This document shows, one piece after another, positions 56,010 through 56,769 of a stretch of 64,000 nt of DNA. The stretch's first letter is position 1; every line of letters begins with the position of its first letter. Location of the stretch: assembly GCA_951406725.2 (NCBI GenBank), contig OX597820.1:77624001-77688000 (forward strand), in the 5' to 3' direction. The DNA is from Octopus vulgaris. Its lineage: Eukaryota. The notes under the pieces are model-generated. The model ran no database searches. It was not told the origin of the DNA and was given only the letters and a program-made list of their open reading frames with translations. The translations under genes were made by a program, and so were the position numbers.

Positions 56010-56769
56010 AATTAATTAAGAAGTAATCAATAAATTTCACCAAGTGGAATTCGGCATGAAAACAGGACCGTTACACGGTAAATTTTAGTAATACTAATAA
56101 AAAGGTTTCAGCAAAGAATTGCCTCACCACACACCGAAGTTCAGAAATAGCAGCCAAAAATCTTAGCCATTTCTTCTACTTTAAAAATTTTACCCTTTGT
56201 TATTATTGATAATAGAACTTTCTCCCTGAGAACATGCTGCTGATTTTTTCTGTATATACGTGGAAAGGCGGGGGAGGCTAGACGATTCTCATTCATATTT
56301 TGAATTTGGCGGTACTAACATTGAACATGAGCGGCTTAACGCCGTTATATGGAAAGATTCGTTCAAATGTTTCTAGTACCTTCGGATTATTACAGAAAAT
56401 CCATACTGATGAAGAATATGGTTAGTAAAGTATATATTTTTTTATGTTCTTTATGTAAAAACCTAATTCAGAAACGCGCGTCTATGGATGATCGGATATT
56501 GATTGATTTTCGTTACGTTACTCTCTGCCTGTGTGAATAACCTTTAAGTATTTTGGTTTCTCTGGAAGACCCTTTTTAAAGTAAAAGAAATGGCTAAGAT
56601 TTTTGGCTGCTATTTCTGAACTTCGGTGTGTGATGAGGCAATTCTTTGCTGAAACCTTTTTATTAGTATTACTAAAATTCACCGTGTAATGGTCCTGTTT
56701 TCATACCGAATTCTACTTGGTGAAATTTATTGATTACTTCTTAATTAATTCATTTTACCCTTTGTTATT
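56010..56769 (+). mobile_element. ORF-less hammerhead element with ~175-bp terminal inverted repeat
   Basis: 56010-56187 is the reverse complement of 56574-56750; ttttaccctttgttatt occurs at ~56188 and ~56753. Confidence 0.8.
56399..56489 (+). ncRNA. Type I hammerhead ribozyme, intact core
   Basis: atccata-CTGATGA-agaat...attca-GAAA-cgcgcg-TC-tatggat; 7-bp stem I; predicted cleavage after 56482. Confidence 0.88.

What the first reader, a model, noticed from the sequence alone, without database searches (positions are those of the whole stretch)
56010..56769. Second ORF-less hammerhead element with inverted terminal copy and repeated 17-nt tail
The structure is [inverted 175 bp]-[ttttaccctttgttatt]-[body with intact hammerhead]-[175 bp]-[ttttaccctttgttatt]. 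The tail preceding the body implies a tandem or circular monomer of ~565 nt, and the inverted copy is a PLE-type integration signature. The 175-bp arm holds a second hammerhead-like remnant (TGATGA-ggcaa ttct ttgct-GAAAc, ~56631-56656). It sits back-to-back with the opposite-strand element at 55402.
Basis: partly seen in the sequence, partly recalled or inferred. Interest (0 to 1): 0.75.

Follow-up and report, generated by a model that had tools for sequence, protein, structure and literature searches.

The report
Penelope-pasted hammerhead retrozyme copy
This is one copy of a widespread protein-less repeat of about 570 bases that carries a predicted self-cutting RNA and was likely pasted into TA repeats by a Penelope-type jumping-gene enzyme; the kind is known, and the "second ribozyme" seen here comes from chance changes in this copy.

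Summary
The anatomy is real: 183-nt inverted arms (176/183 identical), an 18-nt direct repeat 565 nt apart, and one type I hammerhead with its predicted cut after 56482. It is a copy of a dispersed, ORF-less 564-595-nt tandem unit. 159 of 184 copy ends run into (TA)n. Hammerhead stem I covaries between subfamilies. No Penelope ORF is joined to any copy in 151 loci.

The second hammerhead is not supported: both core words occur together in 1 of 146 copies, this arm. That stretch is a predicted hairpin of a 3' RNA module shared with the neighbouring element and sister families.

Copies end at two fixed points about 105 nt apart. Head-to-head insertions use one of each in 44 of 47 classifiable cases; this window's copy is one of the exceptions.

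Verdict: a new family of animal non-LTR retrozymes, likely moved by a Penelope-like element. Cleavage, circular RNA and the partner enzyme are untested. The scan noted the same footprint earlier for other families of this genome.

The parts
56188..56769 (+). Direct arm: one full 565-nt unit plus 17 nt of the next; ends at the family's long end point (L), followed by (CT)n and then (TA)n
56005..56187 (-). Inverted 5'-truncated arm (unit positions 386-568); runs past the short end point (equivalent to 56091), unlike most family insertions; joined through about 12 AT-rich bases to the neighbouring element
56400..56488 (+). Type I hammerhead: 6-bp stem I, core CUGAUGA and GAAA, stem II with an A-A mismatch at its base (G-C in the other subfamily), one-pair stem III with palindromic loop; predicted cut after 56482
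   Evidence: activity not tested
56622..56710 (+).
56719..56759 (+).
56670..56769 (+). Penelope-type tail: the stretch between the short (unit position 482) and long (584/589) end points of the family
55397..55993 (-). Neighbouring element of a second ORF-less hammerhead family (463-nt unit, 1.29 units); no blastn similarity to the first, but the same predicted 3' module and the same two-end pattern; most likely a separate insertion
56770..56876 (.). (CT)n/(TA)n microsatellite at the right flank; (TA)n/(TAA)n at 55306-55396 forms the left flank of the composite

Best explanation
This is a copy of a dispersed, protein-less tandem repeat of about 570 nt with one conserved hammerhead motif per unit (a non-LTR retrozyme), likely copied from RNA into (TA)n repeats by the reverse transcriptase and endonuclease of a Penelope-like element acting in trans. 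Shown: the unit, its lack of an ORF, the (TA)n targets, two fixed 3' ends, 5' truncation, and tandem and head-to-head copies whose two arms share their own variants. Inferred: the enzyme binds the folded 3' module, nicks both strands of the target, and primes one cDNA at the short site and the other at the long site of the same RNA; the two truncated cDNAs then join head to head. Inferred: the template is longer than one unit, either a circle made after hammerhead cleavage or an uncut tandem transcript; the data suggest both occur. The window's copy is an aged and atypical (long plus long) insertion whose left end was probably overwritten by the neighbouring element.
For: Family: 72 matches from 40 scored of 2359 first-look candidates; 127 exact hits of a 22-mer, control 0. 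Ends: of 184 outer 3' ends in 128 insertion groups, 68 lie at position 482, 37 at 584 and 18 at 589; 159 are followed by TA repeats. Of 56 head-to-head insertions, 44 are long+short, 3 long+long, 0 short+short, and 9 have another end (44 of 47 against 50:50, p 1.2e-10). A young 561-nt sister family gives 21 long+short of 24, with 3 other. Arms match each other (median 96.5%) better than other copies (median 88.1%; 44 pairs); in the sister family arms share derived variants at 46 of 4767 sites against 45 of 54609 between insertions. An intact Penelope-like family in the same genome (781-aa RT plus GIY-YIG) shows the same pattern: 10 short ends, 7 long ends about 36 nt further on, and 2 tandem read-throughs in 19 rows, with one of each in L063. 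Hammerhead: stem I 98.7% paired, 3 of 6 pairs changed on both sides in 16 copies; core intact in 49 of 67 parsed copies. Longest ATG ORF 24-63 aa in 12 circularised units. Template longer than one unit: 21 of 198 segments exceed 565 nt and 106 read through the cut site; sister arrays of 5-6 near-identical units, one with a two-base variant in all 6 occurrences that is absent from 45 other loci. Papers (passages read): PMC7229834, PMC11167929, PMC8557442, PMC3846280.
Against: No autonomous partner sharing the sequence or the 3' module was found: among 61 loci fetched around GIY-YIG hits and related places, the module hits were in what appear to be separate ORF-less insertions. The intact Penelope-like family has a different end sequence and a much shorter tail. 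The window's own copy breaks the long+short rule and ends in (CT)n. One short+short pair and one unclear case occur among 15 sister-family pairs (counted by eye). In two sister insertions a variant is shared by the last unit and the other arm but not the upstream unit, which a single circular unit would not give (3 sites). Stem II has an A-A mismatch at its base in this subfamily (8 of 16 rows), which may lower activity. Covariation counts come from related sequences and reflect few events. Copies were sampled from top hits and exact-word hits, and duplicate removal was imperfect (L081/L152; L109 was classed long+long only because a neighbour was grouped in).
Confidence: 0.85

Rival explanations
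1. The copies are only the 5'-truncated ends (pseudo-LTRs) of an autonomous Penelope-like element whose ORF lies further upstream, not an independent non-autonomous element.
For: Autonomous Penelope-like elements give the same tandem, inverted and tail structures and are mostly 5'-truncated (PMC8557442, passages). Only part of the family was seen (128 insertion groups).
Against: Copies longer than one unit run directly from the tail into the next unit, with no room for an ORF (11 natural units; 21 of 198 segments). tblastn with the 781-aa protein gives 1 hit in 151 family loci, and it lies beyond a TA tract in a separate insertion (L154).
Confidence: 0.07
2. The inverted arm forms by fold-back self-priming or a template switch from a single cDNA, not by a second priming on RNA.
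For: Proposed for Penelope inverted junctions in PMC3846280 (passage). Short palindromic fillers occur at some junctions. The window copy and L096 have two long ends.
Against: A fold-back copy would have to stop at one fixed internal point about 105 nt short of the first end, and be followed by (TA)n, in 44 of 47 and 21 of 21 cases. Single-arm copies also end at either point (43 short, 25 long, 4 other), and two internal start sites are known in vitro (PMC11167929).
Confidence: 0.12
3. The unit carries two hammerheads, one decayed.
For: TGATGA, a hairpin and GAAAC are present at 56631-56655.
Against: Both words together occur in 1 of 146 copies. The family keeps this stretch as a GG...CC-closed hairpin in a different predicted fold shared with other families.
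Confidence: 0.02
4. A satellite that spreads at the DNA level (unequal exchange, or DNA rolling circle), with an incidental hammerhead.
For: Homogeneous arrays of 5-6 units exist in sister families.
Against: Dispersal over many chromosomes, fixed 3' ends, variable 5' ends, (TA)n targets and inverted 5' copies are marks of retrotransposition.
Confidence: 0.03

Closest known systems
Metazoan non-LTR retrozymes (Cervera and de la Pena 2020, PMC7229834, passages read; Li, Clavereau and Pollet 2026, bioRxiv 10.64898/2026.07.22.740005, abstract, introduction, part of the methods and passages read)
   Same: ORF-less tandem unit, GC about 34%, one type I hammerhead per unit, one-pair helix III capped by a palindromic tetraloop, a mismatch at the base of helix II (U-U in axolotl HHR_Amex2, A-A here), co-occurrence with Penelope-like elements.
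   Different: The unit of 564-595 nt is longer than the 150-450 bp reported. Most copies seen are about one unit or less. It targets (TA)n, has head-to-head arms and two fixed ends; the word 'tail' does not occur in the 2026 preprint and 'inverted' does not occur in the 2020 paper. RNA circles are not shown here.
Endonuclease-bearing Penelope-like elements: insertion structure (PMC8557442 and PMC3846280, passages) and internal priming (Frangieh et al. 2024, PMC11167929, main text read up to the methods)
   Same: Partial tandems, inverted 5'-truncated copy, a tail on one of the two ends, AT-rich or (TA)n targets, two internal start sites that define the tail, read-through of the hammerhead site.
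   Different: No RT or endonuclease ORF. The tail is 102-107 nt rather than 30-40. The one-long-one-short pairing is nearly strict here, whereas the passages describe the tail as optional or often at one end.
Non-autonomous Chlamys elements such as MRC1 (PMC8557442, passage)
   Same: ORF-less, head-to-tail multicopy insertions by Penelope-type machinery.
   Different: Green-algal; they resemble their autonomous partners at the 3' end, whereas no partner was found here; most Chlamys lack a canonical hammerhead.

Membership tests
Metazoan non-LTR retrozyme | Canonical or minimal type I hammerhead in each unit | tested here: met
   Motif, conservation and stem I covariation
Metazoan non-LTR retrozyme | Short tandem unit with low GC | tested here: met
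   11 natural units of 564-595 nt, GC 0.33-0.36; longer than the published 150-450 bp; longest copy seen 886 nt, 2 of 198 segments hold two hammerheads; sister families reach about 6 units
Metazoan non-LTR retrozyme | No protein-coding capacity | tested here: met
   Longest ATG ORF 24-63 aa in 12 units; no joined Penelope ORF in 151 loci
Metazoan non-LTR retrozyme | Self-cleavage of the RNA | not testable with these tools
   Only an inconclusive excess of 5' ends near the cut site
Metazoan non-LTR retrozyme | Expressed as linear and circular unit-length RNA | not testable with these tools
   No holder on record as RNA; only assembled contigs were available
Penelope-type insertion | Partial tandem with inverted 5'-truncated copy | tested here: met
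   56 of 128 insertion groups are head-to-head; 21 of 198 segments exceed one unit
Penelope-type insertion | Two alternative 3' ends (tail) | tested here: met
   Ends at 482 and 584/589; same pattern in an intact Penelope-like family
Penelope-type insertion | Shared terminal sequence or structure with an identified autonomous partner | tested here: inconclusive
   None found among the loci fetched around GIY-YIG hits; only 150 of 6136 candidates were scored and other clades were not reached
Autonomous Penelope-like element | RT plus GIY-YIG ORF between pseudo-LTRs | tested here: not met
Hammerhead ribozyme (second site, 56631-56656) | CUGANGA, GAAA, NUH and stem I conserved | tested here: not met

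The most novel reading that the evidence does not exclude
A large group of ORF-less hammerhead elements in this genome (10,896 exact hits of an 18-nt module pattern against 38 for the control) shares a folded 3' RNA module that presents two priming sites about 90-105 nt apart. A Penelope-type enzyme uses exactly one site for each strand of the cut target on the same RNA. The module, kept in structure between families with no detectable sequence similarity, would be the cis-acting recognition element that turns any hammerhead RNA circle into a mobile element.
Probability: 0.5. Interest if true: 0.62.

Novelty: new member of a known kind. Interest (0 to 1): 0.36.

Why it matters
The class is known, so this single copy is ordinary. 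The family-level pattern is useful: it links retrozymes to Penelope-type machinery by the shape of their insertions rather than by co-occurrence, and it names a short RNA module and two exact priming points that can be tested in the existing in vitro Penelope system. How Penelope-like elements make their inverted and tailed ends is described as open in PMC8557442 and PMC11167929. I found no paper on cephalopod retrozymes or on strict one-long-one-short pairing in four searches; supplements were not read and may hold such families.

Tried and rejected
Rfam scan of the window: 0 hits at gathering score. Single-sequence fold of the hammerhead: not better than shuffles. RNA evidence: no RNA holder listed; four runs of assembled contigs (three only guessed to be RNA) carry family pieces but cannot show expression, ends or circles. 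5' ends near the cut site: 11 of 85 start 5-14 nt upstream of the anchor word (the cut lies 12 nt upstream), against 21 over the next 80 nt and 4 in the first 5 nt; short copies are commoner in general and the window was chosen after looking, so this is inconclusive. Search for the autonomous partner: GIY-YIG hits were dominated by one family without the module; 20 further loci of other families, sister-family loci and 50 module-pattern loci gave no ORF joined to a module. One search used a structure string with mis-indexed columns (36% paired) and was replaced. A cluster of copies that seemed to start at unit position 216 proved to be a subfamily with a different upstream segment, not a link to an ORF. 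No target-site duplication could be read in the window's microsatellite flanks. Sixteen window ORFs scanned against Pfam gave one transposase fragment and no host gene.

Full report
Observation. The inverted arms are at 56005-56187 and 56573-56755 (183 nt, 176 complementary) and an 18-nt direct repeat lies at 56187 and 56752, 565 nt apart. A type I hammerhead spans 56400-56488, with a 6-bp stem I, the CUGAUGA and GAAA core, a one-pair stem III whose loop sits in an 8-nt palindrome, and a predicted cut after 56482. Rfam does not call it and the region alone folds no better than shuffles.

The family. The 582-nt arm gives 72 matches from 40 scored of 2359 candidates. Exact words give 127 and 43 hits with 0 in the controls. 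From 151 fetched loci I kept 128 insertion groups with 198 segments, after dropping repeated loci and groups touching a locus edge; a few duplicated loci remain. Eleven copies longer than one unit give natural units of 564-595 nt that run tail-to-head with nothing between them. The window's unit lacks about 14 nt. Units have no ATG ORF above 63 aa. The protein of an intact Penelope-like element from this genome hits 1 of the 151 loci, beyond a TA tract in a separate insertion.

The hammerhead is conserved and the second one is not. In 16 copies stem I is 98.7% paired, with 3 of 6 pairs changed on both sides; the base of stem II is A-A in 8 and G-C in 8. These rows are related, so the changes are few events. 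The core is intact in 49 of 67 parsed copies. At 56631-56656 the family reads TGGTGA or TGGTAA and GAACC; both hammerhead-like words occur together in 1 of 146 copies, the window's direct arm.

What that stretch is. It is a hairpin within a predicted multibranch fold: outer helix, GG-closed hairpin, AU-rich loop, second hairpin, outer helix, then a terminal hairpin (5 of 48 pairs with a double change, so covariation inside the family is modest). A structure descriptor written from this family and the neighbour finds the same layout in the neighbour at 55397-55993, which has no blastn similarity, and in three more families, with 0 hits in 5 shuffled windows. It misses the window's direct arm, whose own changes break the pattern. 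An 18-nt pattern from the module has 10,896 hits against 38 for the control.

Ends. Of 184 outer 3' ends, 68 fall at unit position 482, in the module's AU-rich loop, and 55 at 584 or 589, after the terminal hairpin; 159 are followed by TA repeats. Of 56 head-to-head insertions 44 have one long and one short end, 3 two long, none two short, and 9 an end elsewhere (p 1.2e-10 for 44 of 47 against 50:50). One of the three long+long cases (L109) is a grouping artefact. The window's copy is a real exception: its inverted arm runs on to position 568 and meets the neighbour through about 12 AT-rich bases, and its direct arm ends in (CT)n. The simplest reading is that the neighbour inserted later and removed the left end; a single event with a jump between the two RNAs is not excluded. 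The rule repeats in a young 561-nt sister family (21 of 24, 3 other), in the neighbour's family (12 of 16, 4 other, by eye; one long end was forced by the query), and in 13 of 15 opposite-strand pairs picked from the module listing, with one short+short and one unclear (by eye). The intact Penelope-like family (two ORFs, the second of 781 aa with RT and GIY-YIG) shows two ends about 36 nt apart, TA targets and one of each end in L063, but a different end sequence.

Template. The arms of one insertion come from one source: median identity 96.5% against 88.1% to other copies in 44 pairs, and in the sister family shared derived variants at 46 of 4767 sites against 45 of 54609 between insertions. 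106 of 198 segments read through the hammerhead cut site, so cut linear monomers are not the main template. For a circle or repeated copying of one unit: a sister array of about six units differs at only 2 columns, and all 6 occurrences of one motif carry a two-base variant absent from 45 other loci; 10 variant sites are shared by all three copies in tandem-plus-inverted insertions. For linear multimers: 3 sites in 2 insertions are shared by the last unit and the other arm but not the upstream unit; later conversion between arms could also do this. An excess of 5' ends near the cut site is inconclusive. No RNA data could test expression or circles.

Mechanism. Shown: unit, no ORF, targets, two ends, pairing, common source of arms. 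Inferred: a Penelope-type protein binds the 3' module, nicks both strands of (TA)n, primes at the two sites and copies a circular or multimeric RNA; the truncated cDNAs join head to head. PMC11167929 (main text read up to the methods) reports that a purified Penelope-like protein cuts and extends both strands of AT-rich DNA, starts at two internal RNA sites that define the tail, and does not need hammerhead cleavage. The partner enzyme was not found.

Known kinds and novelty. It meets the sequence-level features of animal non-LTR retrozymes (PMC7229834, passages; 2026 preprint, first part and passages), which were already proposed to depend on Penelope-like elements. Inverted copies and a tail at one end are known for those elements (PMC8557442 and PMC3846280, passages). 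What I did not find in four searches is a cephalopod family, a tail of about 105 nt, the near-strict pairing, or the shared module; supplements were not read. Earlier notes of this scan describe the same two-point footprint for 355-495-nt families of this genome (read after my own counts; unchecked notes, not support).

Verdict. A real element, correctly read as an ORF-less hammerhead unit with a Penelope-type insertion; the second hammerhead is wrong. New member of a known kind, interest 0.36.

Noticed in passing
window 55397-55993 (minus): A second ORF-less family (463-nt unit; 73 matches from 40 scored of 3490 candidates) with a type I hammerhead (core at 55660-55666, predicted cut between 55618 and 55617), ends at unit positions 52 and 134/142, and the same predicted 3' module.
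   Followed up: partly
L242-L287, L318, L321 (for example G000:C1:25048800-25054500): A young 560-561-nt sister family (95-99% identity) with arrays of up to about six units and long+short ends; a better subject for bench tests than the window's aged copy.
   Followed up: partly
L061-L066 (for example G000:C5:1040000-1046500): An intact, young Penelope-like family with an extra upstream ORF of about 480 codons overlapping the 781-aa RT/GIY-YIG ORF; my type I hammerhead scan found no motif in these six loci.
   Followed up: partly
L096; L010, L110, L141, L275: L096 is a long+long insertion in a non-TA target whose two flanks are reverse complements over about 11 nt, like a target duplication. 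Several insertions have a third, internal segment that suggests a template jump.
   Followed up: no
window 60880-60972 (minus): Another type I hammerhead-like motif (CUGAUGA at 60964) in a different repeat that starts after a TA tract.
   Followed up: no
window 4204-4846, 41480-41924 and 23468-23899: Broken Penelope-like ORF fragments (tblastn) and a DDE transposase fragment (PF01359).
   Followed up: no
L242-L253: Six sister-family insertions have their head-to-head junction just upstream of the hammerhead; partly selected by the query, but the position may be a preferred stop.
   Followed up: no
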